Assembly (NCBI GenBank): GCA_023205875.1
Contig: CP060763.1
Location: 124,001-188,000, forward strand
Direction: 5' to 3'
Length of the DNA stretch: 64,000 nucleotides
Origin: Chloropicon primus
Taxonomy: Eukaryota
In this document: positions 1 to 55,988 of the stretch, piece after piece
Numbering within the stretch: the first letter of the stretch is position 1
How the letters are laid out: each line of letters begins with the position of its first letter
Program-made: the position numbers and the translations under genes
Notes under the pieces: generated by a model
The model's input: only the letters and a program-made list of their open reading frames with translations
The model's database searches: none
Told to the model about the DNA's origin: nothing

Positions 1-892
1 GTGGCCGCGTGCGGGGCTCCGAGAACCTCTCCAGCAGCCAACATCGACGCCGCCATCCCGTAAAGCGCTCCCCTTCTCGTCGGTTGGCCCGAGCCACCAC
101 CACCACCACGAGTCGTCGTCGTCGTCGTCGAGCAGCTGCTCGAGTCCTCCCTCCTCCCGTCGTCGTTCGGGGATCGACCCAAAGCGAGGACTCGAGTGGC
201 TCTGCCTCTGGACCTCGATGCCCTCCCCCTCGACCCCTGCGCTCTCGCCTGGGTCCTGCTCACTCGCTGCTGCTTCATCATCATCAGGACTCTCTCTCTC
301 TCTCTCTCTCTCTCGAACGTTGTTTTGGATGCCACGCGCACGCACGACCTCAAGCGAGGTATCGATGGAAAGATCTCGAAGAGCTCTGGATGAAGCACGG
401 TTCCGTCCCCTCGGAGCTCCTCGGACCCGCCTGCTCTGTCCCCGAAAACATGGGTTGCGAGCCAAAAAAAATAAAAAAGAGAAAGAAAGAAAGAAAGAAT
501 CAGTCCTGGATTCCTCCCCAGCGCTCCAATCCTTTCGAGCGACGGCTTGAAAGAAAGAGCAAGAGATGAGGAACACAGCCTGCTCGCCTTCCTCGTCTCC
601 ACCCTCCCTCCCCACCCTCCCCACCGCCTCAAACCCACCTGTCTCTTGTGGTCGATCACAGGGATAAGGCGCCTTATCCTCAAATCTCTCTCTCTCTCTC
701 TCTTGAAATTTACTCACGAATTCGAAAGTAGAGGCCGTCTCAAAAAGTAACGGCTGAAAACTGAAACCGTCGAGGCAGGCGTTACGAGAAAGAAGGCTTG
801 ACCATGACGACGATCATCGACATCAGCGGGGTGAACAATGGTGCGTGGTGAGGACGAGAGTGTTGCCCAAGCCGATGCCGATGCCGATGCTG

Positions 893-928
<36 letters not shown>

Positions 929-1172
929 GAGATGGAGATGGAGATGGAGATGAAGGTTTCTCCTGAGGACGCTCTCGCTCTCCGGGAAAGCGGTTGCTAC
1001 CCCTCGGCCTCGGCTGCGTGTGGCCTGACCTGACCCTTGGCCTGACGCGTGACTGGCTTCGCTGTTCTTCATCTTCATCTCTCCTCCCATCTCTTTTTTG
1101 TTTGTTTGTTTGTTTGTTTGTTTGTTTGTTTGGTGTGTTTGGACAAAGTTTGCCAAAACTTGTTGACGTACG

Positions 1173-1526
1173 GTGAGTTGGGTCCTCTCCCTCGACGAGG
1201 CACGCAAACTGACCGCCCGTTCTCTCCTCTCCTCCTCCTCCTCCACTCCTCCTCCATCTTCTTCTTCTTCTTCTCTTCACCCGGTGGGTGGCAAAGACCT
1301 GCACGGCGGCGAGAGGATCAGCGCGCTGCAGACGGACTACGCGGACCAGGACAGGGACACTTACAAGGCCAAGGCTTCGAACATCGCACCGAGGCCAAAG
1401 GGCTGGAAGCCCACCAAGTCCAACACCCAGATGCCTCCCGTCCAGGGCAAGGGGTCGGATGAGGTGCCCGAGGCAAAGACCAGGAGAGGCCCAAAGTACT
1501 ATGGAAAGTTGAGCAAAATCTTGTAG
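1173..1526 (+). CDS. Small hypothetical basic protein, probably a last exon; 5' structure unresolved
   Basis: Coding-like composition from ~1300 (LHGGERISALQTDYADQ...KYYGKLSKIL*); converges on the PPAT 3' end; no recognisable domain. Confidence 0.35.
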   Translation: MSWVLSLDEARKLTARSLLSSSSSTPPPSSSSSSLHPVGGKDLHGGERISALQTDYADQDRDTYKAKASNIAPRPKGWKPTKSNTQMPPVQGKGSDEVPEAKTRRGPKYYGKLSKIL

Positions 1527-1601
1527 AGCGAGCGGACGCTCCCGGAAAGCAAAGCTGTAAAACCCGAACACTCTGCATCAACAAAAACAACGACATTCTT
1601 T

Positions 1602-1897
1602 TTAAGGTTTCGCTTTCTTGCTCTTCGCCACTCCGGCCGCGGCGTCCAACTCCCTGAGGTCGCTCGAGCTGAGTTTCTTTGCGTCCGTGTTCTGGCGGGT
1701 GGCGCCAACCAGATTGACGGAGATGACGACGAGGGGCTCGTACCCCAAGGTCGCCCTCTCGTCGTTGATGGCCGTGGCTCCAGACACGGTCTCCCTGGAC
1801 ACGACAATGCCGTCCATGCTCTCGCTGGTGATGGCGAGGGGCTTGCCCGCGTTCAACTCACCGCTGTCGACCTGCACGCGGCGGACGGAAGGGTCAG

Positions 1898-1938
<41 letters not shown>

Positions 1939-2857
1939 GGAGGGAGGAAGAGCGAGTCAGTTTTGTGGCGGCCAGCCAACCAAAAAAATCTTCTCCGAGA
2001 GAGCGTCTTCGCAGACTGCGCCAGGTACCTGCATCACGAATTCTTGTGGCATCGGGGCCCGTGACACGTCGCCGAGAACGCCAATGGCTACCTGTAGCAG
2101 GGGTGACGAGCCGTTGTCGTCATCGTCGTCGTCGTCGTCGTCATGAAGGAACCGGGCGAATACGTATGAGTAAAGTGCGTAATCGAGCAGGAAAGGGATC
2201 GAGAAGAGCGGCACTAACCTGGAGGCTCGGGTTCATGCACCGTATGAATTCTTCCACGCGGTCCTTCCTCGTGTCAAAAGTCTCCAAGAGCTCCCTGTTC
2301 CTCTTCTTCAAGAGCAACGCATCCGAGGTGATTCCAACGAAGATCGTCTTCGAGCAGACGGCTACCGTGGAAGCCAGCAGCAGCCTGTGGCCCGCGTGGA
2401 GCCTATCGAAAGTCCCGCCAACGCACACCTCGTCCATGGAGCCGTAAGAGGTGCTGCACGTCTCCACCTCGGGCTCGACGACGCAGGAGGAGAGAAGCGA
2501 ACTTTCTCTGCCCCCATCAGCCTCGCCAACCCGGACGTCCTCCACCTCCTGGTACCGGGACACGTTGAACCGCTCGGCAATGGAACGCCGCGTCCAGCCG
2601 CAGAACTGGAAGAGCGGGACGACTTCCCACCTCGGCGCCGCAAAGGCCGCTGCCTCGTACAACGCCGTGAGTATCCTCACGACGTCTTCCTTCCTCCCTC
2701 CGTTCCCTGAAACTCTCTCCCCTCGGAAGAACACGAGGAGAGGTCTCGGACACTTCGCCTCGGACCCATCCCGGCCCAACGATGTCACGCACTGCGTCCA
2801 TTTGCTCCTCTTGTCCAAGTCCACGCACAAAACATTAGCAGGTTCCGTGAACTTCAT
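1602..2857 (-). CDS. Phosphopantetheine adenylyltransferase (CoaD/PPAT-type nucleotidyltransferase), spliced
   Basis: VCVGGTFDRLHAGHRLLL (HxGH), GIVVSRET, KLSSSDLR motifs. Exon 2857-2219, possible 63-nt exon 2091-2029, last exon 1871-1602 with a CTGAC branch site upstream. Confidence 0.85.
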
Positions 2858-3312
2858 CCCTCCCTTCTACGCTTCAGCCGTTACAAAAACTTTGCCCGCG
2901 ACCGCAAAATCAAAAGCCAACAGGACGAAGCTTTCATCGGCGAAGGCTGCTGCCGCTTCCCTCCGGTCCCTCGGCGACGATGGCTCGCCTAACACCCGGC
3001 ACCACCAAGGGCAAGAGAAAGAATGGCGTGCGTTTTTTAGACAAGCGTCGTCATCCCTTGGACATTTCGTGCAAGAGACCGCTCATTCGAAAGAAAAGAA
3101 GACGAAGATTTCATCAGCGTCGACGACTGACGCATCCATCCCCCCCTCCGCTCACAGAACTCACCTCAACCTGGAAGCCGATTCCCTCTCCTCCCCTTTT
3201 CCTCCTGTGTTCTTTCGGTTTTTTTTCCCTTTTCTCCCAGTTCTTCCTACTTTTTGAAGGGGGGGGTGGATGCCAGGCAAAGGCAGAGTCTTGATCGAGA
3301 GAGTGCCCGTCG

Positions 3313-3650
3313 TTGGTCCGTAGGAAGGGCGACAAGCTGTAGTGCTGCTCTTGGGCATTCCAAAGACCTCTCACTTGTGCCCAAAATCGTTGTACAACTC
3401 CGTTGAAGCGCGAAAGTTTGGCTGTTGAGCCTATTGGTTGGACACCTGTCACAAGAGTAGAAAGGTTTGGAGTCCTGGACGACGAAAGGGGCGACCTTTG
3501 GTCCGTGGGAAGGCAATAAGGGGGCAGGACGGCTCTCCGGTCCCTCCAAAGACCTCTCACCTCGTGTCTGAACCGTTGCACCAACTCAAGTGAGGAGAGT
3601 TTGGCTGCTGTGCTACTGGTTTGACCTGCCAGAGTATAAAGGTTGGGAAG
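3313..3650. repeat. Diverged tandem duplication, ~186-bp period
   Basis: ttggtccgt.ggaagg...ccaaagacctctcac...gtttggctg...aaaggtt at ~3313-3470 and ~3498-3650. Confidence 0.75.
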
Positions 3651-4045
3651 GGGGTTAAGCGAGGGTGGTGTGTGAAGACGAGGGGCAGACCAGACCCATC
3701 GTCAGTGTCTGGAGCATCGAACAAGGAGGTCTGATTTCCACTGAGGTTGCGACGGACTCGGCCAAGCACTTGGCTTTCGTCTATCACTGCTTGTCTGGAC
3801 AGACTTTTGGTGGTTGGAGAGCCAACTTGCTGTGAGACGAGCGTCTCCGTTGCCGTGTCTCTGCTGACCGCTTTGGGCTCTCTTCCCCCAAGGGCCTGGC
3901 CTTGCTTGCCGCGGGAACCAGCACGATGGTCTGGGTGGAGGGTTGACTGTGGGGCCAACACTTGGAGCACCGCACGACGGAGACGCGGCGGTCGAGAGAG
4001 ACACAGTAGCCGGCGGGAGGGACAAGGCGTGTGAAAGGCAGAATC

Positions 4046-5824
4046 ATGGAAGAGGTGGATCTGGGGCAAAGCTTTGCGGATGAGAAGGCCGCGCTCCGGT
4101 CGAGGCCGGAGCATCCTGACGGCGTCGTCCTGGACCAGAGGTTCGGGGTCTCCGCAGAGAGGCTCAGGGACATGGTCTTCATGGACAGCAGGGAGGGGAG
4201 CGTCTACCACAGCTTCCTGAAGCAGATGACGTACTTCGATGTGCAAGTTGGGGAGTTTCGTTCGGGGGCCGGCGGGGGTAAGGAGAGGGTCGTGTCGTTC
4301 AAGATATCGTCTCCGATGGGGAGAACCGGACCGAAGGAGGTGGACGCCGAGGACAGCCAAGTCATCGTGCTGGAGAATTCTTGCGGACTGGTAATGGAGT
4401 CCTCGTGCAAGACGAGCAAGGTGATGTACTCCAACTCGTTTACAGTGGACGTCCAGCACAAGATCATCGCGGACTCGCCTTCCGCAAACGAATGCGTCTT
4501 GCACTGCACGGTAAAGGTCAACTTCGTCAAGTCGGTGATGGGAATGATCAAGAAGCAGATTCGAGCGGAATCCGTGAAGCAGATGCACAAAAAGTACTCG
4601 ACACTGGGCCAGTGCATCGCCCAAGCGCTCCAGGCATCGCCCTCTAGTGCTGCAGCTGAAAACAGCGACAAGTTGGAACCCTTGTTAGACATAGGTCTGA
4701 CGATAGAAGGGCAAAGCCAGAATGGGCATCTCTCGTCGAGTGAGACGGAGCCCGTCCCACTGATGCACAGGAGGAACGACAGCGGGACGGACCTGAAGAG
4801 GGACACGGCGAAGAGCGACTCAAAAGTGAGTGGCTGGCTTTTGAAGCGGTCCGACAAGCTCCGGAAATGGAACACGCGGTACTGCGAGTTCGACTTTGTG
4901 TCCGGAAGGTTTGAGTGGAGAAAGAGACCAGACGACCCGACTCCGAATGGCTTCATGATGATCAACATCTTCACCGAGGTCCAGAACAAGGACATCCAAC
5001 GCGGAGTGCACCCGCAGGGAATGGAGGAGTGCAGCTTCCTGATCGTGTACGAGAAGAAGAAGTATTATTTCAGCGCAGATACGGACAGGGCGATGGATAT
5101 GTGGTGCACCGCGATGAAGGAATACATCCAGAGCTGCTCGAGCAAGGTCATGATGACGAACACGAGCTTCGACGACTCCCCGACGATGGTCGCGATGTTC
5201 TCGATCGGGCAGGTCACGGACATGGACCACCTTGACTCCGAGAAGAAGCCCGACAGGATGGCCTACTTCAGGATGAGCGTGGGCAATCACGTGAAGAGGA
5301 GCAAAACGATCAAGACCAGCACTAGCGGGACGTGGAACCAAACGTTCAGCTTCCCCATCCTGATGGGGGAGAATCCTGAGATCATTCTGTACGGGGAGGA
5401 GTGCTACAGCGACAGCAAGTACGCCCAGGGGAAAACGATCGGGATGTGCTCCTTGCCGCTGTGGGCCTTTCCTCCCAACGAGGCTGTGAAATTCTGGGCA
5501 TGCCTTCGAAGCAGCGCGCATATGTCTTCCCCGATCTCAGGCAAAGTGCAAGTCCACCTCATCATCAAGAACAAGTACGATGTAGAAAACTTGGACACGG
5601 AGGACGGCATCACAATCTTCGAAGAGGAGGGGAAGGGGAATCATGCAGGGGAGGACGTCCGGGCAGAGAGCTCCAGAAAAGCCGAAGGCGGTGCCGGTGA
5701 GAACTCTTTCTGGACGAGAGAGTACTCCTTGCTCGACCTCCTTTGTTGTGGCCTGGTCAACCGAGGCAGGAAGCCAAAGGCATCGTCGCAGTACCAGCTG
5801 TTGCAGGAGATGGATGATTTGTAA
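4046..5824 (+). CDS. VASt/StART-like + PH + C2 domain lipid-binding/transfer protein
   Basis: N-terminal KVMYSNSFTV...VNFVKSVMGMIKKQI (VASt-like); SGWLLKRSDKLRKWNTRY...YYFSADT...MDMW (PH); KRSKTIKT...WNQTFSF (C2). Confidence 0.7.
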   Translation: MEEVDLGQSFADEKAALRSRPEHPDGVVLDQRFGVSAERLRDMVFMDSREGSVYHSFLKQMTYFDVQVGEFRSGAGGGKERVVSFKISSPMGRTGPKEVDAEDSQVIVLENSCGLVMESSCKTSKVMYSNSFTVDVQHKIIADSPSANECVLHCTVKVNFVKSVMGMIKKQIRAESVKQMHKKYSTLGQCIAQALQASPSSAAAENSDKLEPLLDIGLTIEGQSQNGHLSSSETEPVPLMHRRNDSGTDLKRDTAKSDSKVSGWLLKRSDKLRKWNTRYCEFDFVSGRFEWRKRPDDPTPNGFMMINIFTEVQNKDIQRGVHPQGMEECSFLIVYEKKKYYFSADTDRAMDMWCTAMKEYIQSCSSKVMMTNTSFDDSPTMVAMFSIGQVTDMDHLDSEKKPDRMAYFRMSVGNHVKRSKTIKTSTSGTWNQTFSFPILMGENPEIILYGEECYSDSKYAQGKTIGMCSLPLWAFPPNEAVKFWACLRSSAHMSSPISGKVQVHLIIKNKYDVENLDTEDGITIFEEEGKGNHAGEDVRAESSRKAEGGAGENSFWTREYSLLDLLCCGLVNRGRKPKASSQYQLLQEMDDL

Positions 5825-5928
5825 ACATCACTTTGGCAAGACATGAAATGACGTGTACCAGTACGAGACACGCGCGGCGGCGTGTGCCCTTTTTTATTAC
5901 AATCATATGAAAGTCTCGACCCGCGGGC

Positions 5929-6455
5929 TTACTTTTTCGTCTCCTTCGCCGCGTCCTTCCCCCCTTTGCTGACTTTCTTCTTGTTCCCTATGTTGAGATG
6001 CTCGATCAGAGGTGATCTGGATATGGCGGCAGACTGCACAGAGTTTGACTTCACTTTCGAGTAGATGCTCGCCAGCGTCCTTGAGTTCAGCATCGGGTCC
6101 CCCTCGTTCTTCAGGGCGTACAGCTCCCTGACAGAGTAATTCGTGGGATCCCTTTTCAGCTCGTTCCTTCTGGCGGCCATGTTGAAATACTTTGTCCTGA
6201 AGATTCTCCCGAGTTCTATCTCAATCGAGTTCGTCTTCTTCTGCCCCACGAAGACCTCCTGAAGCACCTGGTCGCTCGCGTCGTACAATGTTTCCCAGAA
6301 CATCCTGTCCTGCTGGATGTGCGTTACCTCTCCAGACTGCGTCAAGATGATCTGCGCATAGATGCTTCCAAGAGTTGAGAACTTGTTCTGAACCTCCTTG
6401 GCGCACTCGTCTGTCGTCGTTCAAGGTCGATGGGTCAGGCCTGAGAGCTCAGCTC

Positions 6456-6494
<39 letters not shown>

Positions 6495-6822
6495 TTTTGA
6501 AGTTCATCTGCCGCGTTCTTCTCTTACCTATGAGTGTCTGAGCCTCATTGCCCAACGAGTCCTTCTTCACTTGCAGGTTCTGCAGTTTGAAGAAGTTGAC
6601 GAAGTAGTGTATCAAGGCGTGAAGGAACTTGTCGTACTTGGAGGACTTGAAAAAAGTTCTGAATTTCGTTGGAGTAGTCTCCTCAAACGTCCTGAAAACT
6701 CTGTTCTTCACCTCATCCAAGTTCTGCAACAAGTCCTCCGCCGAGGACCCGTGGTTATTCTTACGGCCCCCATAACTGTAGCTCGAGGCCTTCTGACCGC
6801 CTCCTCCCCCTTTCTCGTCCAT
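5929..6822 (-). CDS. PPP1R36-like (protein phosphatase 1 inhibitor family) protein, 2 exons
   Basis: Exons 6822-6528 and 6410-5929 join in frame (QTLI/DECAKEVQ...YAQIIL); DRMFWETLY and IEIELGRIFRTKYFN resemble the PPPI_inhib family from memory. Confidence 0.55.
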
Positions 6823-7092
6823 GCCTTCCTTTCAAAAGTCCCCTCCGACTCCCAAGCTCCCAGCCTTGTCAATGCTCGCGACCCGCACAGCCTTCCCTTG
6901 CGACCCTGCCTTGTCTCCTCTCCTCTCCCCTCCCTCCTGGTGGCCACCACCACGCTGCTGGGAGACTGGGTGACTTTGACTTCCTCCACACCTACCCTTG
7001 GGACCAACGCACCCAAAGTCAAAGAGAGTGGGTCGACCACCTCTCTCAATCAGATTTGCCAGGGACTCAAGGGGCACCAAACTCAGCACCTC

Positions 7093-7314
7093 ACCCTCCC
7101 TTGCGACAACACTCGAGACTCTACAAAGCTTTGTGTCCTGCTCCTGGTGGACCTTCAAAGCAACAGGAAGGTGTTTGACCCAAAAGCTTGACCCAAAACC
7201 AGAAAGGGAAGGACAAAAGATGACCCAGCTCAAGAATCTTTGAAGGTCCTCCGACACGTGTGTGACCCAAAGACCCTCCCTTGCGACAACACTCGAGACT
7301 CTGCAAAGCTTTGT
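7093..7314. repeat. 42-bp direct repeat at exactly 180-bp offset
   Basis: accctcccttgcgacaacactcgagactctRcaaagctttgt at 7093-7134 and 7273-7314, one mismatch. Confidence 0.9.
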
Positions 7315-7354
7315 CCTCCTCTCCTCCTCTGGGCCTTTGACTGGAAAACTTTTT

Positions 7355-7391
7355 TTAGGTTTTTTAGGGTTTTAGGGTTTTAGGTTTTTAG
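7355..7391 (+). repeat. Interstitial telomere-like / telo-box run (TTTTAGGG x2 plus degenerate TTTTAGG)
   Basis: ttttttaggttttttagggttttagggttttaggtttttag between divergent genes. Confidence 0.7.
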
Positions 7392-7816
7392 ATTCTCTGC
7401 TCAGCACGCGGGCACAGGAGCGGGGGAACGAGGACGGCGTTTGTGGAACGAGGACGGCGCAGACGTGGGGTGAAGGGGGTGAGGTGTGGCTCATCGGAAA
7501 GCTTATCTCGCGAGCTTTCTGTAGAGCCCTCGCTTGACCCGTTTGGATTCCTGAGCGAGGCGCTAGGGACTTGGACGTAAGGAGGAACACTCGAGGCGAC
7601 GGTGGTGGACATCCGACACGTTTATCCTTCGAAAGAGAGCGCTGTAACGGAAGGTGATCCGTTCGAGGAAGACGTCAGTGGAAAGATCATCTCACGGGCT
7701 TTCGAAAGAGCCGTCGCACGCCTGATTTGGTCCGCGGAGGGAGGAGAGAAGGCCGTGCGGGAACGAATCTGGTGTGAAGTGGAGAGCATCCAAGGCACTC
7801 GGCAAGGAGGAGGCCG

Positions 7817-8566
7817 ATGAAGGCGAATCGCAAACATTTGCCTCACAATCTTTCGATTGGTGCTTCTCTCGACCCGCTACGACACGGAAGGGGCACAAAG
7901 CGTTACGAGGTGCCTGCAAAGTCTGCGAGGTTTGCTTGCATTGTAGACGGCAGCCGAAGGAGGGAGCTGATGGCAGCCGTGCTTGTCCTGAGTGGATGGG
8001 GCATCGGCAAGGCAAGGGCGGAGGACCTCGAGGCGACGAGCGATCCGTACAAGCAAGGCCAAGGGAACGTGAGTCTTGGGCTGCTCAAGGGAAGGGTAAG
8101 AGGGTGCCCGACGAACGTGAACCCCAACTGCGTGAGCACGAGTTCGCTGTCGACGTCGTACCAGACGCCGTGGAAGGCACCGGAGGGGATGAGCATGAAG
8201 GAAGCGTGCGAGCTGATCAAGGACACCCTGCTGGGGAAGGGTGCTGTGCTCAGGGAGTACGGGGAGGTCAGCGAAACCGACCCGGAGCTCGGAACGTACC
8301 TGAGGTTCGACTTGGAGGGGAACTTCGGTAGGGAGAAGCCGGACCACGTCGAGTTTCTCGTGCGCAAGACGGATCCCGTGAACTGGGAAGGGGAGTCCTC
8401 TGGCCTTTCCGTCTTCTTTCGCTCCATCGCTGGCGGCGTGAGGTACATCTATCCAATCCAGCAACCCATCACAGACTTTTCGAAGCAGAGGAAGCGGATG
8501 GAGGGGATAAGGAACGACCTTGGGTGGCGGCTCAGCGGGTGCGAGCTGATCGAGTGCTATGAGTGA
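7817..8566 (+). CDS. DUF1499-family thylakoid lumen protein
   Basis: RRRELMAAVL...KARA twin-arginine lumenal signal; GRVRGCPTNVNPNCVSTSS; QRKRMEGIRNDLGW. Confidence 0.75.
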   Translation: MKANRKHLPHNLSIGASLDPLRHGRGTKRYEVPAKSARFACIVDGSRRRELMAAVLVLSGWGIGKARAEDLEATSDPYKQGQGNVSLGLLKGRVRGCPTNVNPNCVSTSSLSTSYQTPWKAPEGMSMKEACELIKDTLLGKGAVLREYGEVSETDPELGTYLRFDLEGNFGREKPDHVEFLVRKTDPVNWEGESSGLSVFFRSIAGGVRYIYPIQQPITDFSKQRKRMEGIRNDLGWRLSGCELIECYE

Positions 8567-8599
8567 TAACGCGCGCGTGAAACGTGAACTGGTCCCTCT

Positions 8600-9595: not shown

Positions 9596-9619
9596 CACCT
9601 TGCTCAGCCACTCCGCTCG

Positions 9620-10445
9620 CCAAACGCTTCGACCAATGGATGAATGGAAAGCTCGCGAGACAACGAATCTTCGAGCGGTTCCCGCTTCCGCCAGAAAACG
9701 CTTCCCCTCCGACGCAGCCAGCGCAATCAATCAATGGTTTGGATCCACAGCCTCCCAGTTCTGCGTCACACAGAAAGCCTCTCCCAAATCCTCCTCACAG
9801 CACCGATTCTTTCGTGCGAGCGGTCTACGGCAAGATCACGAGATGAATCTTCCGTCCCTTCTGCGCTCCCCCCCCCTCTCTCGCGCCTCAACGCCTCTGC
9901 CTCGGCGTCCCTCTCGCTCGCTCGATCCCTTCTCCCGATGCCGATGCCTCGCCCTCCTTCCCGTCCTCAAATCTTCCTCACTGGACCGATTCTTTCGTGC
10001 GAGCGCTCGTTTGAAAGATCACGAGACGCTCCTTGCGATTATGCTCTCCCCTTCTACGCCGCCTCCCTTCTGCGATCTCAATACCTCGTCCTTTCTCTCC
10101 CTCTCTCTCCCCTCTTGTGGCAACGGAGAACCTCCAGTTCTGGATAAGGTTTGAAGGTAGGAGAGTCCATCAGTGAACTGGAGCGAGGGATTGAGGTGTC
10201 AAGGCGAAGAGCGGAGGATTTGAGAGTGGTATCTAGCGAAAGGAGGTTTCAAGAGCTTTCGAACGAACCCTCGCTCGACTCGTTTGAGTCCCAGAGTGAT
10301 ACGTAACAGGGATTGAGCACGACCAGCACCAGCAGCAGGTGGCCTCAAGGGCGAGGAGGAGAGGGGAAGGGAAGGGCGGCAGGGGGGGGAACGAGGGGGT
10401 GAGGTGTTCAGAGGGAATCTTCATGCTCTGATCTTTCGTTTGATT
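9620..10445. promoter_or_regulatory. Divergent promoter with phased copies of the recurrent TCGAGCGAGGGCTCGTTCGAAAG element
   Basis: + copies with GAAAG core at 9647, 9830 and 10013 (183-bp steps); - copies at 10256 and, weaker, 10433. Confidence 0.65.
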
Positions 10446-10540
10446 GTTTACTGGAGAGAAGTGTCGGGATCTGGAGGGAGCTTGTGGATCATTGGGTGAC
10501 AGAGAGGAGTCGTGCTGAGGAGCAAGAGGGGTTGGTGAGG

Positions 10541-11147
10541 ATGGGGCTTGTGGCTGTGAGGTGGAGGGCAGGGGCGGGGAGGACGGCCAGAGGTGGAGGA
10601 GGGGCGGAACGGATCCCCTGGAGGCGGAGGGGGTGGTGCCATGGTGGATGCAACAGCACCGCTGTCGCGTCCACGAGGTTCGAGGACGTCGCCGAGACCC
10701 TCGAAAGGGAGTGCGGGATATCGAAGAGGAGGGAGGTGGAGATCGTCGTGGACGTGCTGACGAATCCAGCGAGCGGATTTCTTGACCGCGGTCTCGCGAA
10801 TAAGTTCAGGTCCTTTCAAGTGAAGGAGGTCGACACCGACATTCATATCAAGCCAGGTGAGAGCAACTTTGGTGAAGGCGAACGAAACGACTGCTGACTT
10901 TAGGATGGGTCCTCTGTCTCCTCCATCTCTCGTCTCTCGGCCCCCAATCGCCAGTCGCTTCTTTCCTGAAGGAGTTGGGCGCCACGCCGGAGCAAATAAG
11001 GCGCATGGTGATCGTGCACCCTCCTGTGGTGGTGTACGACGTGGAGACCCACCTCAGGCCCCTGATCGCTTACCTGAACGAAGTCGGAGTGGAGGTAAGG
11101 GCAAAGTCATTTGTCGAATCCTTTCCTTCGATTCCGACGTCTGACTC

Positions 11148-11186
<39 letters not shown>

Positions 11187-11372
11187 CGTGTCCCTGTCTC
11201 TCTCCTCGTCCTCGTCCGCGTCGTCGTCAAGGACGTGGTGAGCGTGCTGGCGAGCCGGCCCTCCCTGTTTGGTCTGAGGGCGGAGAAAAACTTGATGAAG
11301 ATTGTCGAGTGGCTCCAGTCGGACGGGTACAGCAAAGATCAGATTGTGGAATATCTCTGCAAAAGCTTGTGA
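10541..11372 (+). CDS. mTERF-repeat-like organellar protein, 3 exons
   Basis: Exons ~10541-10856, 10955-11094, 11232-11372 join in frame: IKP/VASFLKELG..QIRRMVIVHPPVVVYDVETHLRPLIAYLNEVGVE/DVVSVLASRPSLFGL. Confidence 0.65.
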
Positions 11373-11448
11373 ACCTTTTTTGTTATCAATAATATACATA
11401 ACATATATATATAGAGAGAGAGTGTGAAGGGCAAATGAGGGCACTCTC

Positions 11449-14133: not shown

Positions 14134-14595
14134 GCCCGTGCTCCTCAGATGATCCTCACCACAGGGTCCTTCTTGTCGCGCGAGGGCTCGTTCGAAAGGG
14201 CAAGAAACGCTCCTTCCGCTCGTCTATCACTCCAAAAAACTCCGGCACAAACTCCCGCCCTCGTCGTCGCCTCCCTTCCTCGGTGATCTACTCCTCGATT
14301 TCTTTCTGCCTCTCTTTTTCGTGTTTCGTGTCGCCAGATCCTCACCACTGGGTCGTTTCTTTCGTACGAGAGCTCGTTCGAAAGAGCACGAGACGACGCT
14401 TCCTTCTTTCCTGTCCTCCGCTTCACTCTCTTCCTCCTCCGCGCGCTTTTGTCCTCTTCGTTTCTCTCTCGTGGCCTCGGGCCGTTATGATGGTTCAGCG
14501 GAAGGGAGAAAATGAAGAGAAAGAAACAAAGAGAGGAGGAGGAATAAGAGGAAGCGAAGGTCGATGACAGGTTCGTCGTGAGGCATTGTTCTTGG

Positions 14596-15354: not shown

Positions 15355-15872
15355 GATCACGATCTAGGTTTCTTTTTCTTTCGTTCGCCCTCGACACAAC
15401 GTCGTTCCTTTCGAGCGACGGCTCTTTCGAAAGAGCAAGATGCGACGCTTCTGTCTGACCTGTCCCCAGTCTCTCCCTCTTTCTCCGCTGCGCGTTCCCG
15501 TCCTCTTCTTTTCTCTCTCTCTCGTGCTCGTTCGCCCTCGTGCTCGGCCGTTATGATTCAGCGGAAGGGAGAAATCCACCAGAAGAGAAAGAGCAAAGGG
15601 TCGCCTCAAGAGAAGGCAGAGAGAGAACAGAGAGAGAGGAGAGAGAGAGAAGGAGGGAGAAGGAGGGAAGGAGGACGGCGGAAGAGCACGGTACACCTCG
15701 CGGGCTTTCGATTGATACCTCGTTCGGGGTCCCTCGGCCATGATATAGGCGCATGAAGGTAAGGAGGGAAGGGCTCTGGTTGCTGGCCATCGAATCGAGG
15801 AGGAGCTGACTTGGGTTCCTTCCTCGTCTCGCCTCAGCGTTTTGGTTTGGAGGAGTGAAACGTACGAGAGCC

Positions 15873-23201: not shown

Positions 23202-23814
23202 ACACCTTCACTTCCTCAAGCTGCCACGAAGAACAAAGCTGCTGCTTGTGTCTGTCTCCCAAGCACAAAACGTGGCACAGAACGAAACAGGGAGAGAGAG
23301 CAAACGAGGGAAACGAGACACACGGAACGAAGCAATTCACCGATCAAGCCGCTCCTCCTCCTCCTCCTCCTCCTCGTCTTGCCCTCTGCCTCAACCAACC
23401 GCCACCTCCCTCCGCCAAACACTTTGGGCGTCTCGTGACCGAACCGAAGCGCGAATGGGAACAACTTATCGTATCGTTCGAAAGATCTCGACGAGTCCTA
23501 CCCCTTGACGACGATCTCGTTCCAACCCGATCACCTCTAACCACCTCACTGCCCTCGCCCTTCCCCTCCCTCCCTCGCGTGATCGAATCGAATCGAATCG
23601 AATCGATTCCGTTCTCCAATCTTGGTCGTTCCTTTCGAGGGAGGCGTCGATCGAAAGCTCGCGACAAGACGTTTCTCGTGATCGCTTCCCTGTCTCCTCC
23701 TTCCCTCTCCCCTCCCTTCCCTCCTCCGCGTCCTCCTCGACGGTCCGCCGCTTCCGATCGATCGCTCTTTTGATCGATCACTCCGCCACCCTTTGGCTTC
23801 GATCGATCAAACGC

Positions 23815-23848: not shown

Positions 23849-24039
23849 CGCGGCGAGGAGGACGAGAGCGAGGTTGTGAGTCAAGTGGAGCGGTAAGGGT
23901 TGAAGGTGGAAGCGTCTTGTCGCGAGATTTCCGTCGAGTGGTCGCTCGAAAGGAACGGAGGTGTGGTGAGGCGAGAGGGCTGTGATGGAGGGACGGTGAA
24001 GCGACAACGACGACGACGAGAGGAGAGAGGAGAGAGGAG

Positions 24040-30299: not shown

Positions 30300-30585
30300 C
30301 CTTTAGTAGTAAGTCCCCCCCCTGTTGTGTGGAAATCAATGGATTAGCCCTCACCTTCATCCACCATCATCACCAATGACCACCTTGCTCTTCCCTCCAT
30401 TTTGGTCAAGTGAGGGCTCTTCGGAAAGAGCAAGAGCAAGAGAAAGACGCAGTGCAAGAGATCCTCCTCCCCCTCCCTCCCCCTCTGCCCCATCATCATC
30501 ACCATCATCACCACCACCATGATCGTGATCGTCATCATCTCCCTTCTCCAAGCCAGGCCAAGAGCTTGGCGACCGAGGAGGCAGG

Positions 30586-35477: not shown

Positions 35478-36467
35478 AGGAAAAAAAAACCGTAACGAAG
35501 CGAAGAGCGATCGTCCATCTTGTTTTGTGTTCATACTCTTTTCTTTCATACAATTGTTATCGTAGCAATCATCATCATCATCTTTGCTATATATATAGCA
35601 AGAGGGGTTGCTGGAGCTTGGCCAGTGGCTGGCATGACTCCCTCTCTCCCTCCCCCTCTCTCTCTCTCCCTCCCGTGGTGGTGGTGGTGGTGGAAGCAAA
35701 GGGGAAGCAAAGCAAAGATGGGATCGGGATCAAAGTCAACTTCCATTGGCTCTCCTTGCCATGCATGACTCCCTCTCTCTCCCTCTCTCTCTTTCTCTTG
35801 TTGTGGAGGAGGAGAAGGAGGAGGAGGAAAACAGAGACGCAGAGGAGGAAGCAAAGGGGAAGCAAAAGCAAAAGCAAAAGCAAAAGCAAAAGCAAACGAC
35901 GGGATCGGTGATCGGATTGGATTGGATCGGATCAAAAGTCAACCTCCCTGGGGCTCTGGCTTGAAGATGTGACTTCCTCCTCATCTTTCCTCACCATACG
36001 ACGAGTGACGTTACCTTCATTACTGTGCGTTTTCTACTCCATTTTTTCGCGCCAACGAAAGAGGAAAGAACGTCTCCCTTTCGCGAAGCCGAGCGAGAAG
36101 AGAAAAGGTAAGTTCAACCCCGCCACGGGACGCGAAGGAATGACCTCCGTCAAGGTTCGGCCACGGAAAGTGAATCGTCTCTTCGTGATCTTTCCAACGA
36201 GCCGTCGCTCGAAAGAAATGACGTCCTGCTGAGGATGCCACGACTGAATGACTCTTCTCTTGGGCTCTCTCTTTCATGATGCAAAGAGGTGAGTTTTCCC
36301 TGACGCCTACGCCTCGTGGAAGACGCGCGTTCGCTCCAAAGATCACACCAATCGAAGCGTTACGCTCCCCTCTTTCGAAAGAGCCCTCCGCGGAACGAAG
36401 TAACGCCCGGATGAAAACGTTCTGACCTTGATGTTGATCTTCGGTTTGGCCTCGTAGGGATATTGGG

Positions 36468-36627: not shown

Positions 36628-36661
<34 letters not shown>

Positions 36662-38924: not shown

Positions 38925-39266
38925 AAAAAGCAAACAAAACAAGAACTCGTATTTTTTTCGTATTGAATTTTTGCTTTTTCGTTTCCAGGAACACCACCCA
39001 GCAACGCATCACATCCATCCCCATCCCTTCCCTTCCTCCCTTTCCTTGCCTTTGAATCACCCTTCCTGTCACCAAGCGTGGGATCTTTGGAAAGAGGAAG
39101 AGGAAACGGATCCATCCACCCCACATCCCACACCCCATCCCACCCCATCCCTTCCTTTCCCTTCCCCCTTCCTCTTCCCTCCATACCATACCCCTCCCCT
39201 CCCCTCACTCGAAAGAGAAAGAGAAAGATCTCGATCAGAGAGAGAGAGAGAGAGAGGAGGGCGACG

Positions 39267-43616: not shown

Positions 43617-44053
43617 AGCTGTCATCTCATCCGTCTGTTGGATCCATCCTTCGCCCCCATCACCATCATTCTCTTGCGTGTACAACTCTCTCCCTTCAGC
43701 TTTGCAGTCTCCTGCATCCTCCTCCACGCCTGTCCTCCACCTCTTCCGTCTCCTTGAATCCCCTTCAATCGTGTCAAGCGAGGGCTCTCTGGAAAGGGGA
43801 AGAGACAACGGATCCATCCATCACACCCTCGTCATGCTCCTCCCCTTACCCTCCTCCTCCCCTTCCGATCCCACCATCACCATCACCATCACCACCTCCT
43901 GGTCTGCCAGAGAGAGAGGAGGGGTTGGGGATGCCGACGCCGAGTGGCTTGTCACGAGGAGGACGGTTGGCACGAGGAGGATCGAGGAGGAGGCTCAGCA
44001 TCGAGCACGGCAGGAAGCTTCATCCCCATCGCCCTCATCCTCATCCCGTGGCG

Positions 44054-45265
44054 ATGAGCTCGCCTCTCAAGGAGGAGGAGGAGGAGGAGGAGGAGGATGC
44101 AGGGAGGAGACAGAGGATGGAGAGGTACACGAGCAGAAGCGGTTACGATGGAGGGAGGAAGGGCAACCTCGCGAGTGAGTACCACGATTCAGACTTTGAT
44201 TGGATGGAGTTGAGGGAGGAGGCGGAGAAGATTCTTTCTTCCAAGGAGGAAGGGAATCATGAACGTGAACGTGGTGGTGATGATGAGAAGGATGGTGGCA
44301 TCGAGAAGCTCGGTGACCAGGGCAAAGCGTGGGAGAAGTTCCACAACAAGGTAAGGAGGAGAGATGGTGGTGGCGGGGGAGGGGTTGGAATCTCTTCCTC
44401 TTGCTCTTTCCAAAGAGCCCTCACTTGATTCAGATGGAGGAGGAGGAGGAGGAGGAGGAGGAGGAGGAGGAGGAGGAGGTTGTTGTTGTTGTTGTTGTTG
44501 GTCCTCGTCAAGGGGGGACAGTTTGTGCTGACAGATGGATTTCATCCACCATCGCTTTTTTTTTTGCTTTTTCTCGTTTTCTTGTTTCAGGTGAACAGCA
44601 CAGCAAAGTTCTTCAAGGAGAAGCGATACATCCTGCAGGAGTTCCCTGCCTTGCTGGAGGAAAATGTCCTCGAGGTGTGCGAGTTTGGCTGTGGCAACGG
44701 GAGCACCGTGATCCCGATCCTGAAAGGAAACCCGTTGGCCAGGGTGACGGCCATGGACTTCAGTGAATCTGCGGTGGAGCACACCAGGCAAGCCGTGGAG
44801 AGGGAGGGGTTCGAGTCCGCCAGGTGCACCGTGATGACCCGCGACCTGAGTTCCGGTGTTGTCGTGGAGGAGGAGGGGGGCTCTGGGGAGGAAGGGAAGT
44901 TCGACGCCGTTCTCATGGTCTTCTTCCTCTCTGCGGTTCCCCCGCCAAAGATGGACAAAGCGATTGGGAATGCTCTCCATCTTCTCAAGCCGGGAGGCCG
45001 CGTCTTCTTCAGGGATTATGGCATGTTCGACCTCACTCAGCTCAGGTTCCCTCAGGACCAGAAGCTGGGAAGCAAGCTGTATCACAGGGGTGACAACACC
45101 TTGTCCTACTTTTTCACTCTCGAGGATCTTGCGGCCAAGTTCGAGGGGGAGGGGTTCGAAACGGTAGAGACGGACTACGCCTGCGTGGAGCTGTATAACC
45201 GAAAGAAGGACTTTGAGATGAGGAGGGTGTTCGCTCATGGCGTCTTTCGAAAGCCGCTGCGGTGA
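44054..45265 (+). CDS. tRNA m3C methyltransferase (METTL6/METTL2/Trm140-like), 2 exons
   Basis: AWEKFH/..FFKEKRYI..EFP, EFGCGNGST, FFLSAV, FRDYGMFD, YHRGDNTLSYFF; intron 44351-44590. Confidence 0.88.
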
Positions 45266-46516: not shown

Positions 46517-47220
46517 CTTCAAGCCGAAGCAGACCACCAATCCGAGAGATACACCGGTCGTGCGCACCAGCAATCGAAAGATCTCGAGCCAACGCTTCGC
46601 TCCGAACGCCCTCTTCCTCCGGATCCACCTCCCTCGCTCTCCACCGCGTCGCAAAGCACGCGATGAGCCTCCTCCTGGCTGCCCTCAAATGCCTTGATGA
46701 CCAAAGTTGGCGACCATTCCGGTTGCCAAACGAGTCGATCGAGGGCTCGTTCGAAAGAGAAAGAGATATTCTACCGCGATGCGTTGACACCTTTCCCTCT
46801 TACGCTCTTGTTCTCTCCATCTTTCTCTCGTTCTTTCTCCTCCTCCGTCGATCTCTCCTCTCTGAAGATGGGAGTTCACGATAGCGCGTTCAAAACCGCC
46901 ACGAAGAAAACGGAACGAGAGAGAGAGAGGTAAGACCTTCGCGGAGGAAGCGGAGGGGGAAGGAGGGGGCGGAGGGAGGAGGGGGTTGGACCAACGAACG
47001 CTTCGTCTCGCGAGCTTTCGAACGACCCCTCTCACGAACGTTTTCTCAAACGTTGTCCATGTCAAGTGTCGAGAGAGACGTGGTTTTCGCCTCCACGTGA
47101 AGGGATCGAGTGCCCATTGTAGCAACAAGTGCGAACGTTTGGAGGAAGCGGAAGGGGACGGAAGCGGGACAGACGGAAGCGTTACGTCTCGATCTTTCCG
47201 TGGACCTCTCGCACGAAAAT
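46385..47220. promoter_or_regulatory. Divergent promoter with phased copies of the same element
   Basis: + copies at 46405, 46576 and 46753; - copies at 47015 and 47194. Confidence 0.65.
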
Positions 47221-47319
47221 TTTGTCTTCCGTTTGAGGGTGGAACGTCTGATCTTCTTCATTCTTTTGTTTTTGTTTTTTTCCTTGTTTTTGATAACATG
47301 ATATGTATATCATTAGAAG

Positions 47320-52594: not shown

Positions 52595-53093
52595 GGAGCA
52601 TGCCGCTTCCCTTCCCTCTTGTGCATCCCAACACAGGCCAGACCTGGCCTTGTCGCGAGACCTCGTCGTCGCTCCAGGTTTTCGTCGCCTGTCCTTGCTG
52701 AATCTGGCCAGGAGGAGGGGCTTGCTCGATGCTGCCCTGCATCCGCTCGCCGATCTCAGCCGCCCTCTTACCCCTCTGCTCCCTGCACCGCCGCTGTCAT
52801 CATTTTATCAACAACATCATCATCAACAACAACAACAACATCAACATCATCATTCATGGATCAGTTTGTTTCATGGTCAAGAGAACTCCGTTCCTTTCGA
52901 GGGAGGTATCGTTGGAAAGATCTCGTCATGAAAGTTTCCATCGTGACTTCTCCACTCCTCGCTGCTTCCTCCCTCGACCGCCAGAGCGTCCACTCACCTC
53001 GGTCTCATGAGACTCCCGCCAAAAAAATGAAGAAAAAAAACCCTCAAAATTTTCCTTTTTTTTAGCGGGAAAAAATTCTCACTTTTAGTTTCA

Positions 53094-53143: not shown

Positions 53144-53144
<1 letters not shown>

Positions 53145-53519
53145 CGCCATGTACCTGCTGAAGCCTTACCTCGCCGCAATCGGCGCACTCCTCGTGGTAC
53201 GTTCATGGCGCATCAACGAAACCCTTTGCGTCATCAAAAACACAAAAACTTTTTTTTCACTCTCCAAAAAGAGGATGACCACGTGATGATGATGATCGTT
53301 GGTTTGTTTTTGTTTTGTTTTGTTTTTGGAGCCCTCACTTGAAAGGAACGCCTCACGGATCGGGTGGAAGCAAGGGATCCCATCCCCGACCACGCATTCG
53401 TGCATTCGTGCATACATTCATGCAGGCAGGCAGGCAGCTGCACGTGATGTTGTTCAGGATGAGGATCAACTGACTCGTTGCTGCTTCTTCTTTCTGATTT
53501 TGTTTTTTCTTGTGTCAAG

Positions 53520-53654
53520 ATGACGAGCTTCTACCTCATGACGAGGCCAGATTGTGCAGTGAAGTGTTACTTGAATTTGCTTAGCGCCACGACGGAGGAA
53601 GGTAAGACCAACACCGACCAGTGGGGTTGGTATGTGTTGTGCTGACAAGCTTGT

Positions 53655-53691
<37 letters not shown>

Positions 53692-54083
53692 GTCTCTGTC
53701 TCTGTCTCTGTCTCTGTCTCTGTCTTGGTTGGTCTGCATGTGTAGCGGGCTCCTGGCTCAAGTCCTTCAACGTGGAGGGAGGAAGAAGCAGCATGTGGCA
53801 GTCCCCCATGTACCCGCTGACGATCCACCTTGTGCAGGTGGGAGGCTGTGCGTTCTTCTGCTTGGGCCTTATCCTGTTGGCCTCCACGACCATCGGGAGT
53901 GCGAAGAGGTTCACCGAAGGGTCCTGCCTGCTCCTCGCACTTACTGCGTACTGCTTCCTGTTGAAGGATGACGTGATGAAGTTCCAAAGCAAGCTCAGCG
54001 GTGTCGTCGCCATCAACGTCGTCCTTCTGACGGCCTCTCTCATTGTGAACCGGATGGTAGCGGCAAAGAAAAAGTCGGATTGA
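53520..54083 (+). CDS. Small multi-pass membrane protein with C-terminal KKxx-like motif
   Basis: Exon 53520-53601 joins exon 53746-54083 in frame; about three hydrophobic segments; ends KKKSD. An upstream exon is possible. Confidence 0.55.
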
Positions 54084-54211
54084 AGGACAAAGGAGAAGGA
54101 ACAAGGCATGGCGGTTTTGCGTCCACGGCTTTCGGCTCAAAGACACCAAGAAAAATACCCATCATCTAAAGTGTTTCCATGTAATCTACTATGAACGCAA
54201 CTATGAACGCT

Positions 54212-55603
54212 TCACGCGAGGAGGTCCAGGTCCACGAGCGGATTCTCCGTCAGGAAGTTCTGGTACAACTCGCAGTTCGAGATGGATTTGTGGAGAATCC
54301 TCTTCTGGCACAGCCTCCACTGCACGGCTAGCTTCATCGTCTCGTCCTCCGCTTCGCCGCCGTCGTCGCTGCTGAGGTCGTTCAGGATCTTCTCGTCCTC
54401 CTCGACTCGAGTGGGGAACATCTCAAGCCTCGTTCGCAGGACCTCCTTCAGGAACGCAAAGGCCTTGCTCTCGAGGGCCACCGAGACCGGGCTCCCCTGC
54501 AGAATTCTTTGCTTCCACTTTGCCGAGTCCTTGGCATTCTGGTCGCACGCCACTTTCCACCTCACGAGGCAAAGGAGGTCCCAGCCGGGGAATCCGTTCT
54601 GGTACACCTCGTAGGAAGAGCCCTCCAACTGCAGCGCGGCGTCCTCAAGGACGCTGTCGGGAAGGACGCCGTCAAGCCTGACTGAGTCTTGGGCGTTATC
54701 CTCAATCAGAAACCCATAGATCTCGATCAGCGATCGGTTGTCGTACATGCCGTACGTGACGAAAATTTGTTCCCCCTTCTTGTAGCACCTCTCCCCAGTC
54801 TTGAACACGAAAGACTGGGTCCTCTCGTCGTAGACCCCCGAGCCACTGACTCCCTCAAAGGCGCTTTCCCCCCTCTTCCTCTTCTTCTTCCCTGCCATCA
54901 CCCTCTCCCAGTGGTCGACGAAAGCTTGTGGAAGTCCAGTCGGATCCGGGCCCGCGGGGGGGCAGTAGTTGAAGAGGTCTCCGATGGGGCACAGGCCCCC
55001 CGCCTCGTCCCCCGTGCCCGGAAGGTACACGCTCCTGCTGAGGATTGTTGACGTGGCCCAGAGAAACTCATCGAAGGAGAATCTCGTTGGACACGACAAC
55101 GAAGCCGTTTGTCCTTCCCCTGATCCAAACGCGCACAGCTTCTTGTAGTTCTCCAGAAGCTTGTCCCTCAAATCGGCGTGGTGCTGCTCGAAGCTCCGGT
55201 CCTGCAGCTCCCTCGCCACAGGCTTGCTCCAGTGGCACAGCAGGGCGTACGAGCCGGGCAGACTCCGCACGTACAAGTCGAAGGGCGACTTGTCCTTCCT
55301 TTCCCTTTCCCTCAGCAGGGCAAGGGCGAGAACATCCGTCGAGCTCAATCCCGGTATCTTCCTCTTGCTCCTCATGATCAGACCAAGAGGAATCCGGAGA
55401 ACCTCCGAGTGAGGCTCCAAGTCCCTGGTCGCCACAATACCTCTGCCCCCCTCCTCCACCTTCTCCGCCCTCGCGTTCTTCAGCTCCAGACCTCGAGACC
55501 TCGCCCAATCCAGCAAATCACGCACAGCATCCGAGCAAGGGGAGGAGCACGAAGCCGCCTCCGCAGATGTAACGCCCGCCGTCATCGTCCTCTCCGGCTC
55601 CAT
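54212..55603 (-). CDS. SET-domain non-histone lysine methyltransferase (SETD4/Rubisco LSMT family)
   Basis: GGRGIVAT, WATSTILSR, PIGDLFNY, GEQIFVTYG, LIEIYGF, FPTRVEED. Confidence 0.85.
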   Translation of the reverse strand: MEPERTMTAGVTSAEAASCSSPCSDAVRDLLDWARSRGLELKNARAEKVEEGGRGIVATRDLEPHSEVLRIPLGLIMRSKRKIPGLSSTDVLALALLRERERKDKSPFDLYVRSLPGSYALLCHWSKPVARELQDRSFEQHHADLRDKLLENYKKLCAFGSGEGQTASLSCPTRFSFDEFLWATSTILSRSVYLPGTGDEAGGLCPIGDLFNYCPPAGPDPTGLPQAFVDHWERVMAGKKKRKRGESAFEGVSGSGVYDERTQSFVFKTGERCYKKGEQIFVTYGMYDNRSLIEIYGFLIEDNAQDSVRLDGVLPDSVLEDAALQLEGSSYEVYQNGFPGWDLLCLVRWKVACDQNAKDSAKWKQRILQGSPVSVALESKAFAFLKEVLRTRLEMFPTRVEEDEKILNDLSSDDGGEAEDETMKLAVQWRLCQKRILHKSISNCELYQNFLTENPLVDLDLLA

Positions 55604-55988
55604 GATTGACGTCGTGCTGCATCAATGCACCAAATCCAATCAACCCAATCAATCAATCAATCCAGTGAGAAACCGAAGTGGACCTACCTCGAAGATGAGA
55701 CGTGTGAGGTATCGATGGAAAGCTCTTGAGATGCTCCAGCCCTTCTTGCGGTCCCCTTGAACCCTCGCCTCTCGACCCAATCACGGAATCGACCGGAGCA
55801 AACAAACTGTTTGATCCCATTCCCAAACACACTCGGTGATGATGATGATGTTGTTGTGAAGTTGATCCGAAACCGTTCTCGTCGAGTGAGTGGTTGTTAG
55901 GAAGCTCACGAGACGCTGTATCTCATCGACGAGGCCTCCTCCCCTCCCCACCCCCCTTCCGTCCTCCTCCTTGGCAAAGAGAAGGGAG

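What the first reader, a model, noticed from the sequence alone, without database searches (positions are those of the whole stretch)
340..55920. Oriented ~35-60 bp element phased at nucleosome-like spacing around gene starts: candidate DNA-encoded chromatin/promoter code
Seen: a degenerate element, about (ATCCTCAC..)TTCTTTCGAGCGAGGGCTCGTTCGAAAGAKCWCGAGACG, recurs about 30 times, almost only near gene starts. GAAAG-core positions on +: 368, 553, 3089, 7497, 7681, 9647, 9830, 10013, 14194, 14380, 15429, 23480, 23653, 30424, 39090, 43792, 46405, 46576, 46753, 52915, 55717, 55900. On -: 3356, 3542, 7515, 7699, 10256, 15705, 23927, 36190, 36372, 44407, 47015, 47194, ~53325. Adjacent same-strand copies are 171-186 bp apart (185, 186, 184, 183, 183, 186, 173, 182, 171, 177, 179, 183). 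The best copies contain an inverted repeat CTTTCGA-N12-TCGAAAG. It is longer than a typical transcription-factor site and shows no obvious transposon termini. Established: nucleosome repeat lengths fall in this range, and some prasinophytes have Dnmt5-methylated CG-rich linkers. Inference: a sequence-encoded nucleosome-positioning or remodeler/methyltransferase-docking element. I do not recall it being described.
Basis: partly seen in the sequence, partly recalled or inferred. Interest (0 to 1): 0.9.

Follow-up and report, generated by a model that had tools for sequence, protein, structure and literature searches.

The report
Promoter-facing motif marking nucleosome centres
In a tiny marine green alga, a specific 30-50 base DNA motif repeats every ~180 bases on both sides of gene starts and faces the promoter, likely marking the centre of each promoter-flanking nucleosome, which would be an unusually explicit DNA code for where nucleosomes sit.

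Summary
The element is real: 34 copies in 64 kb against 0-2 in simulated sequence. The host is a Chloropicon alga, likely C. primus. 33 of 34 copies lie within 500 bp of a start codon, at 22 of 32 genes. 11 of 12 same-strand neighbours are 173-186 bp apart (null mean 0.7), and all 16 opposite-strand pairs face inward across a pyrimidine-to-purine-switching gap. Copies occur in 5' leaders, in introns and on the upstream side of promoters. New here: outside the motif, the A/T versus G/C dinucleotide pattern oscillates at ~10.3 bp in phase with it, from about -73 to +73 and not beyond. That is a nucleosome-sized footprint centred on the invariant core, so the element likely sits at the dyad, not in the linker. 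No CpG periodicity, ApT enrichment, target-site duplication, indels, conserved RNA fold or Rfam match was found, which argues against Dnmt5 linkers, MITEs and structured RNA. There are no chromatin data, no second window and no second species. I found no description in 10 literature searches.

The parts
342..390 (+). copy 368; in transcribed leader of the minus gene starting near 56
527..575 (+). copy 553 (185 bp from 368)
3063..3111 (+). copy 3089; inner pair with 3360
3338..3386 (-). copy 3360 (no CpG)
3524..3572 (-). sub-threshold partner of 3360 in a 186-bp tandem duplication; not counted among the 34
7832..7880 (-). copy 7854 (new; 151 bp from 7703)
9621..9669 (+). copy 9647; PsbP-family gene leader
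9804..9852 (+). copy 9830
9987..10035 (+). copy 10013; inner pair with 10260
10031..10242 (.). inter-copy gap, pyrimidine-rich left half and purine-rich right half; inferred nucleosome-depleted promoter (same pattern in 5 of 5 inner pairs)
10238..10286 (-). copy 10260
10415..10463 (-). weak copy 10437 (new; 177 bp from 10260)
14168..14216 (+). copy 14194; ankyrin-repeat gene leader
14354..14402 (+). copy 14380
15403..15451 (+). copy 15429; inner pair with 15709
15687..15735 (-). copy 15709
23454..23502 (+). weak copy 23480; upstream of CPSF1-like gene
23627..23675 (+). copy 23653; inner pair with 23931
23909..23957 (-). copy 23931; upstream of SAC3/GANP gene
30398..30446 (+). copy 30424; upstream-side (inferred -1) single copy, CpG-poor
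36172..36220 (-). copy 36194
36354..36402 (-). weak copy 36376
39064..39112 (+). copy 39090; upstream-side copy before phosphorylase gene, CpG-poor
43766..43814 (+). copy 43792; upstream-side copy before methyltransferase gene
44388..44436 (-). copy 44410; inside an inferred intron, at an inner gap plus two repeats from 43792
46550..46598 (+). copy 46576
46727..46775 (+). copy 46753; inner pair with 47019
46997..47045 (-). copy 47019
47176..47224 (-). copy 47198
52889..52937 (+). copy 52915
53302..53350 (-). truncated copy 53324 in an inferred intron; core replaced by a microsatellite
55692..55740 (+). copy 55718
55874..55922 (+). copy 55900
59045..59093 (-). copy 59067 (new); upstream-side copy before CDK5RAP3-like gene, CpG-poor

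Best explanation
The element is an oriented, indel-free 30-50 bp motif repeated at ~180-bp steps and facing the promoter from both sides; it likely occupies the centre (dyad) of the -1 and +1 to +3 nucleosomes and likely fixes their position by being read by a sequence-specific chromatin protein. Shown: the motif, its polarity, its spacing, its presence in leaders, inferred introns and upstream DNA, and a phase-locked ~10.3-bp A/T-versus-G/C oscillation from about -73 to +73 around the five-base core. Inferred: the 147-bp footprint is a rotationally fixed nucleosome whose flanks give bendability and whose centre gives register and direction; the 246-279 bp between inner cores is two half-nucleosomes plus a ~100-130-bp depleted promoter. 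Least certain: that a dedicated factor or remodeller module, rather than histones alone, reads the centre. Twelve near-invariant positions and strand polarity seem more than a two-fold symmetric octamer needs.
For: Spacing 11 of 12 in 170-190 bp, null max 5 of 20,000; 16 of 16 opposite-strand pairs inward, P=3.5e-4; 33 of 34 within 500 bp of an ATG against 47% of the window. Inward distances form a lattice of about 280+178n, including two intronic copies. Flank periodicity with the motif excluded peaks at 10.3-10.6 bp, 7.5x null, p=0.0025 after taking the maximum over 16 periods; phase-free p<=0.005 at -80..-27 and <=0.012 at +23..+70. It holds after dropping 5 related copies (29 left, z 4.1), at 45-73 bp from the core (z 3.7), and in inner (20) and outer (14) copies. 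In 21-bp steps the signal is positive inside -73..+73 and near zero in all 6 steps outside; 174 control anchors on the same 5-mer give z -0.6. Conservation is position-specific (15-33 of 34, chi2 P 7e-25) with no length change in 34 of 34 copies. WW/SS phasing as the nucleosome signature: PMC5807854.
Against: No MNase or chemical map; everything rests on 34 copies in one window. The masked translational scan does not single out +1: z is 4.7-5.8 for centres from -30 to +12. One inside step (+32..+52) is flat, 11 of 34 copies score zero or negative, the promoter-side flank of inner copies alone is marginal (p 0.053), and +80..+125 shows phase-free p 0.02. The template centre and period were chosen. 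10 of 32 genes have no copy, and no phased trace persists in coding DNA. Periodicity could be a mutational by-product of fixed nucleosomes rather than their cause. An ungapped seed biases against finding indel copies. Conservation in other species was not tested. Start codons are my own picks.
Confidence: 0.6

Rival explanations
1. A protein-binding site that fills each linker (and the promoter edge), one per nucleosome repeat, as CENP-B boxes do in satellite arrays (recalled) or as a repeated Phaser-type barrier.
For: The 30-bp conserved core equals 180 minus 147; the phase of the near-flank A/T peaks is also compatible with nucleosomes starting about 18 bp either side; spacing and polarity fit equally.
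Against: A flanking 147-bp nucleosome should keep the phase out to about 165 bp, but amplitude is 0.124 at -75..-27 and 0.045 and 0.025 farther out (coding DNA enters those zones for some copies). One RNA contig starts at 7441, 78 bp before the first core, which suits a +1 nucleosome edge (weak).
Confidence: 0.17
2. Relics or insertion footprints of a small DNA transposon (MITE, Introner-like or Fanzor-carrying TIR element) that inserted at nucleosome-phased sites near promoters.
For: Internal palindromes; algal Introners insert in linkers (PMC9860276); C. primus has TIR/5-bp-TSD Fanzor elements; CpG-poor copies share some extra flank sequence.
Against: Best TSD match 3-4 of 34 for 4-5-mers; no indels and almost no fragments at 55% pairwise identity; strongly uneven conservation; strict inward polarity; palindromes are central, not terminal.
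Confidence: 0.08
3. A non-functional by-product: nucleosome-sized tandem duplication plus gene conversion spreads a seed, and stable nucleosomes imprint the periodicity by mutation bias.
For: Tandem duplications of period 144, 180, 186 and 192 exist in the window; neighbours are slightly more alike just outside the core (p 0.035 and 0.047), e.g. 9830/10013.
Against: Neighbouring cores are no more alike than distant ones (0.64 against 0.63) and spacers are unrelated (p 0.21). It does not explain inward polarity across divergent promoters, lattice-fitting intronic copies or invariant positions.
Confidence: 0.1
4. An RNA element (hairpin or protein site) in 5' leaders.
For: At least 7 of the 15 copies in 1-15,560 lie within listed RNA contigs.
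Against: No consensus fold; 1 of 12 copies reaches z -2; pairing equals the independent-column expectation at all 13 pairs; no Rfam or tRNA hit; copies also lie in introns and, in the opposite sense, upstream of promoters.
Confidence: 0.05

Closest known systems
Nucleosome positioning sequences / nucleosomal signatures (WW/SS 10-bp phasing, PMC5807854; yeast signatures, PMC5088595; purine-run/pyrimidine-run pattern, PMC3097165)
   Same: 10.3-bp WW/SS oscillation over about 147 bp; the core's pyrimidine-to-purine junction resembles the junction of the standard repeat given in PMC3097165 (by eye).
   Different: Those signals are weak, dispersed and compositional; this has a discrete 30-bp motif with 12 positions kept in >=30 of 34 copies, fixed polarity and restriction to promoter-flanking positions.
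Barrier motifs that phase arrays (Drosophila Phaser, bioRxiv 10.1101/093666 abstract; yeast general regulatory factors, recalled)
   Same: Sequence motif tied to phased nucleosome arrays, presumably protein-read.
   Different: A barrier motif occurs once, with nucleosomes flanking it; here the motif recurs at every step, is absent from the promoter gap and appears to be inside the nucleosome.
Prasinophyte linker methylation (Dnmt5 5mC in gene-body linkers, 6mA in first linkers; as summarised in PMC12636532 and PMC12695648)
   Same: Green picoalgae, nucleosome-repeat periodicity, TSS-proximal.
   Different: Those are modifications of dinucleotides in linkers; here a long motif with no ApT enrichment, dispensable CpGs and no coding CpG periodicity.
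CENP-B box in alpha-satellite (recalled, not checked in a call)
   Same: One protein-read box per ~170-180-bp repeat.
   Different: Satellite arrays are homologous throughout and centromeric; here spacers are unrelated and copies are genic.
Introners / MITEs (PMC9860276)
   Same: Dispersed short element with nucleosome-related placement in algae.
   Different: No TSD, no terminal repeats, not itself an intron, no indel decay.

Membership tests
Nucleosome positioning sequence | ~10.3-bp WW/SS periodicity over about 147 bp | tested here: met
   (n=34; exact centre ambiguous by one or more helical turns)
Nucleosome positioning sequence | repeat-length spacing of successive units | tested here: met
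   11 of 12 at 173-186 bp
Nucleosome positioning sequence | nucleosome mapped or reconstituted on it | not testable with these tools
   no chromatin run among the 16 listed
Dnmt5 CG-rich linker system | periodic CpG clusters in gene bodies | tested here: not met
   max power 1.34 against null 1.16+-0.14 (max 1.46), 34.7 kb coding
Dnmt5 CG-rich linker system | Dnmt5 gene and linker 5mC | not tested
   no genome held; no methylome
AMT1 6mA linker system | ApT sites as the marked unit | tested here: not met
   1.65 ApT per 44 bp against 1.56 expected; 7 of 34 have none; methylation itself untested
MITE / Introner / TIR element | target-site duplication | tested here: not met
   best 4 of 34 (4-mer), 3 of 34 (5-mer) over all boundaries; old copies could have lost them
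MITE / Introner / TIR element | terminal inverted repeats | tested here: not met
   symmetry centres are internal and 0.4-0.56 complementary
MITE / Introner / TIR element | match to C. primus Fanzor-element ends | not testable with these tools
   ends are in a figure; the supplement rows seen hold proteins only
SINE / structured ncRNA | Rfam or tRNA homology, conserved fold | tested here: not met
Tandem satellite | homologous spacers between boxes | tested here: not met
   12 adjacent pairs at background; no 170-190 period in TRF; one exception, 3360/3546
Barrier motif (Phaser / GRF type) | single motif in the gap with arrays on both sides | tested here: not met
   motif recurs at each step, none in the five inner gaps

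The most novel reading that the evidence does not exclude
Chloropicon hard-wires its promoter chromatin: several thousand copies (about 9,000 if this window's density holds over 17.4 Mb) of one polar, dyad-centred motif specify the -1 to +3 nucleosomes of most genes, read on the nucleosome by a lineage-specific factor. This would be an explicit, high-information nucleosome address code with no described counterpart.
Probability: 0.4. Interest if true: 0.95.

Novelty: new variant of a known kind. Interest (0 to 1): 0.82.

Why it matters
How far DNA sequence dictates nucleosome position in vivo is a long-standing question, because natural signals are weak and diffuse. A discrete motif that marks individual promoter-flanking nucleosomes and their direction makes it directly testable by mutation, reconstitution and pull-down. 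It would also let promoters and nucleosomes be read from sequence in an abundant oceanic alga, and could point to an unknown nucleosome-binding factor or a natural counterpart to synthetic positioning sequences.

Tried and rejected
No whole genome is held, so no genome-wide test. Degenerate-pattern scans: viral contigs 0 hits; metagenome contigs 12 loci, each with a single PWM hit and no clusters, read as chance or unrelated; prokaryote genomes 2 hits, not examined further. A looser scan of viral contigs was not run, so contaminating algal contigs there are excluded only at the strictness. A CPSF1-like protein query found no locus in viral contigs. No relative's DNA was obtained, so conservation is open. 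Earlier-findings look-ups were empty. Search for weaker phased copies at multiples of 180 bp: mean -23.7 at -180 against background -25.2, one candidate (2912+, 5.2 bits, -177 bp), no general trace. Dinucleotide periodicity at 100-300 bp in coding DNA: nothing clear. RNA contigs were laid on 1-15,560 only, the piece table was cut, and uncovered copies say nothing. A Pol III B-box reading (recalled consensus) was dropped because the base before the core is C in 15 and G in 14 of 33 copies. Huff and Zilberman 2014 is not held.
Full report
Source. The window is a compact, 57% GC eukaryotic region; 28 of 46 ORFs scanned carry Pfam families. Its ArgJ is 78% identical to a cluster holding Chloropicon roscoffensis, and its own unnamed cluster lies on a 770,552-bp contig in NCBI, UniRef and EukProt. 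I infer a Chloropicon species, likely C. primus (20 chromosomes of 0.37-1.88 Mb, PMC6731263). No genome was held, so all statistics are from this window.

The element. A PWM converged on 32 copies at >=14 bits; simulations gave 0-1 at that level. I used 34 copies: those 32 plus weak 36376 and truncated 53324, leaving out the half-site at 7681. Numbering the first base of the five-base core as 0, conservation runs from -18 to +11 with weaker extensions to about -40 and +22. Matches per position range from 15 to 33 of 34 (chi2 186, df 29). Twelve positions are kept in >=30 copies: alternating TC and GA steps about 6 bp apart plus the core. Mean pairwise identity is 55%, yet a gapped HMM aligns all 34 without a length change and finds almost no fragments (the seed was ungapped, which biases this). 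Flanks beyond about -40 and +40 are at compositional background.

Arrangement. Of 12 same-strand neighbours, 11 are 173-186 bp apart and one 151; random placement in the same clusters gives 0.72 on average and at most 5 in 20,000 draws. All 16 opposite-strand pairs within 1 kb face inward (P=3.5e-4 by permutation in the 7 mixed clusters). The five innermost pairs have cores 246-279 bp apart, and two pairs with an intronic partner fit that gap plus one or two repeats. In 5 of 5 inner gaps the + strand switches from purine-poor (0.21-0.29) to purine-rich (0.52-0.85), and the 85 bp inward of 22 innermost copies average 0.75 pyrimidine against 0.50. 33 of 34 copies lie within 500 bp of a start codon (47% of the window qualifies); 22 of 32 genes have a copy within 700 bp and 10 have none. 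Start codons are my first-Met or hand picks. Four single copies sit on the upstream side of tandem genes and two in inferred introns. These six are CpG-poor (0-2 against median 5), but so are their flanks; the class was defined after I noticed this, so the p-values (3e-4) are descriptive. RNA contigs from runs guessed as RNA, with spliced joints, cover 368, 7519, 7703, 7854, 9647, 9830 and part of 10013: 7 of the 15 copies in the stretch laid, from a cut table. Joined pieces show the element in other transcripts, at least ankyrin-family paralogues. So many copies lie downstream of transcription starts, antisense to the mRNA.

Nucleosome footprint. Aligned on the core, the WW-minus-SS profile peaks at -66, -55, -46, -35, -24 and +25, +46, +56, +69, with smaller peaks between. 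With the motif excluded, power peaks at 10.3-10.6 bp (7.5x the jittered-anchor null; p=0.0025 over 16 periods). A template centred at +0.5, chosen after seeing the profile, gives z 4.1; 4.1 with five related copies removed; 3.7 using only 45-73 bp from the core; and -1.0 at 75-120 bp. In 21-bp steps the signal is positive across -73..+73 (z 2.4, 3.5, 1.1, 2.5, 1.2, 0.4, 3.2) and within 0.8 of zero in the six steps outside. The same 5-mer at 174 other sites gives nothing. WW/SS phasing is the established nucleosome signature (PMC5807854). That WW maxima fall at half-turn offsets from the dyad is recalled; with it the dyad falls at about +1, next to the best short symmetry centre at -0.5. Against this: the masked scan cannot separate centres from -30 to +12 by z, 11 of 34 copies do not score positive, the inner copies' promoter-side flank is marginal (p 0.053), and +80..+125 has phase-free p 0.02.

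What it is not. Not Dnmt5-type CG linkers: no CpG periodicity in coding DNA, and CpG-poor copies keep 11-13 of 13 key positions. Not an ApT methylation cluster. Not a structured RNA. Not evidently a MITE: no TSD, no terminal repeats, no decay by indels. Not a satellite: spacers are unrelated and neighbours are no more alike in the core than distant copies, though one pair (3360/3546) arose by a 186-bp duplication, so duplication can add steps.

Mechanism. I commit to a dyad-centred element on the -1 and +1 to +3 nucleosomes (0.6). Flanks would set rotation; the polar centre would set register and direction, likely through a sequence-specific factor or remodeller module. Rivals: linker-filling site 0.17, neutral duplication and mutation by-product 0.10, transposon relic 0.08, RNA element 0.05.

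Literature. Ten searches listed no paper whose title or abstract start describes such a motif in Chloropicon or other algae; the library omits most subscription papers. Seen as passages: PMC6731263 (12 of 15 places; no such motif in them), bioRxiv 2023.08.09.552727, PMC12636532, PMC12695648 (no mention of Chloropicon), PMC9860276, PMC3097165, PMC4797311, PMC5807854. Abstract and outline only: bioRxiv 093666, PMC5088595. Supplement search only: PMC10711439 (2 of 9 rows seen). The supplements of PMC6731263, including any repeat library, were not read and could contain this element as an unclassified repeat. Huff and Zilberman 2014 is known only through. CENP-B boxes, yeast general regulatory factors and the B-box are recalled.

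Verdict. A real, strongly non-random and apparently undescribed promoter-flanking element with independent sequence evidence of a nucleosome centred on it. It is a new variant of sequence-directed nucleosome positioning, pending a genome-wide scan and a chromatin map.

Noticed in passing
window 7353-7391: About five copies of an 8-bp telomere-like repeat inside a divergent promoter, just upstream of the 7519 array; possibly a telomere-box-type site.
   Followed up: no
window 7093-7140 and 7273-7320: A different ~45-bp block repeated at exactly 180 bp with poorly related spacers, on the other side of that promoter; does not match the PWM; could be a second phased motif or a duplication.
   Followed up: partly
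window 33040-33300 and 33530-33870: Recent tandem duplications of period 144 and 192, i.e. nucleosome-sized, at the 5' end of the RINGv gene.
   Followed up: no
window 12544-15363: Two ankyrin-like genes with 87-bp (29-residue) repeats; RNA contigs indicate many expressed paralogues elsewhere that share the element-bearing leader.
   Followed up: partly
window 23572-23606 and 23750-23810: Runs of short self-complementary 4-5-bp repeats beside and within the CPSF1/SAC3 promoter gap.
   Followed up: no
whole window: TpA is strongly depleted (observed/expected 0.35) while TC/GA steps are enriched (1.36); CpG falls mildly from 0.97 at coding starts to about 0.83 deeper in genes.
   Followed up: no
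L003, L005, L009, L011: Four of the 12 metagenome pattern hits share one related sequence in low-GC contigs, probably a repeat family of another organism; single hits, no phasing.
   Followed up: no
window 7964-9867: One RNA contig spans the convergent gene pair ending near 8570-8600, suggesting overlapping 3' ends.
   Followed up: no
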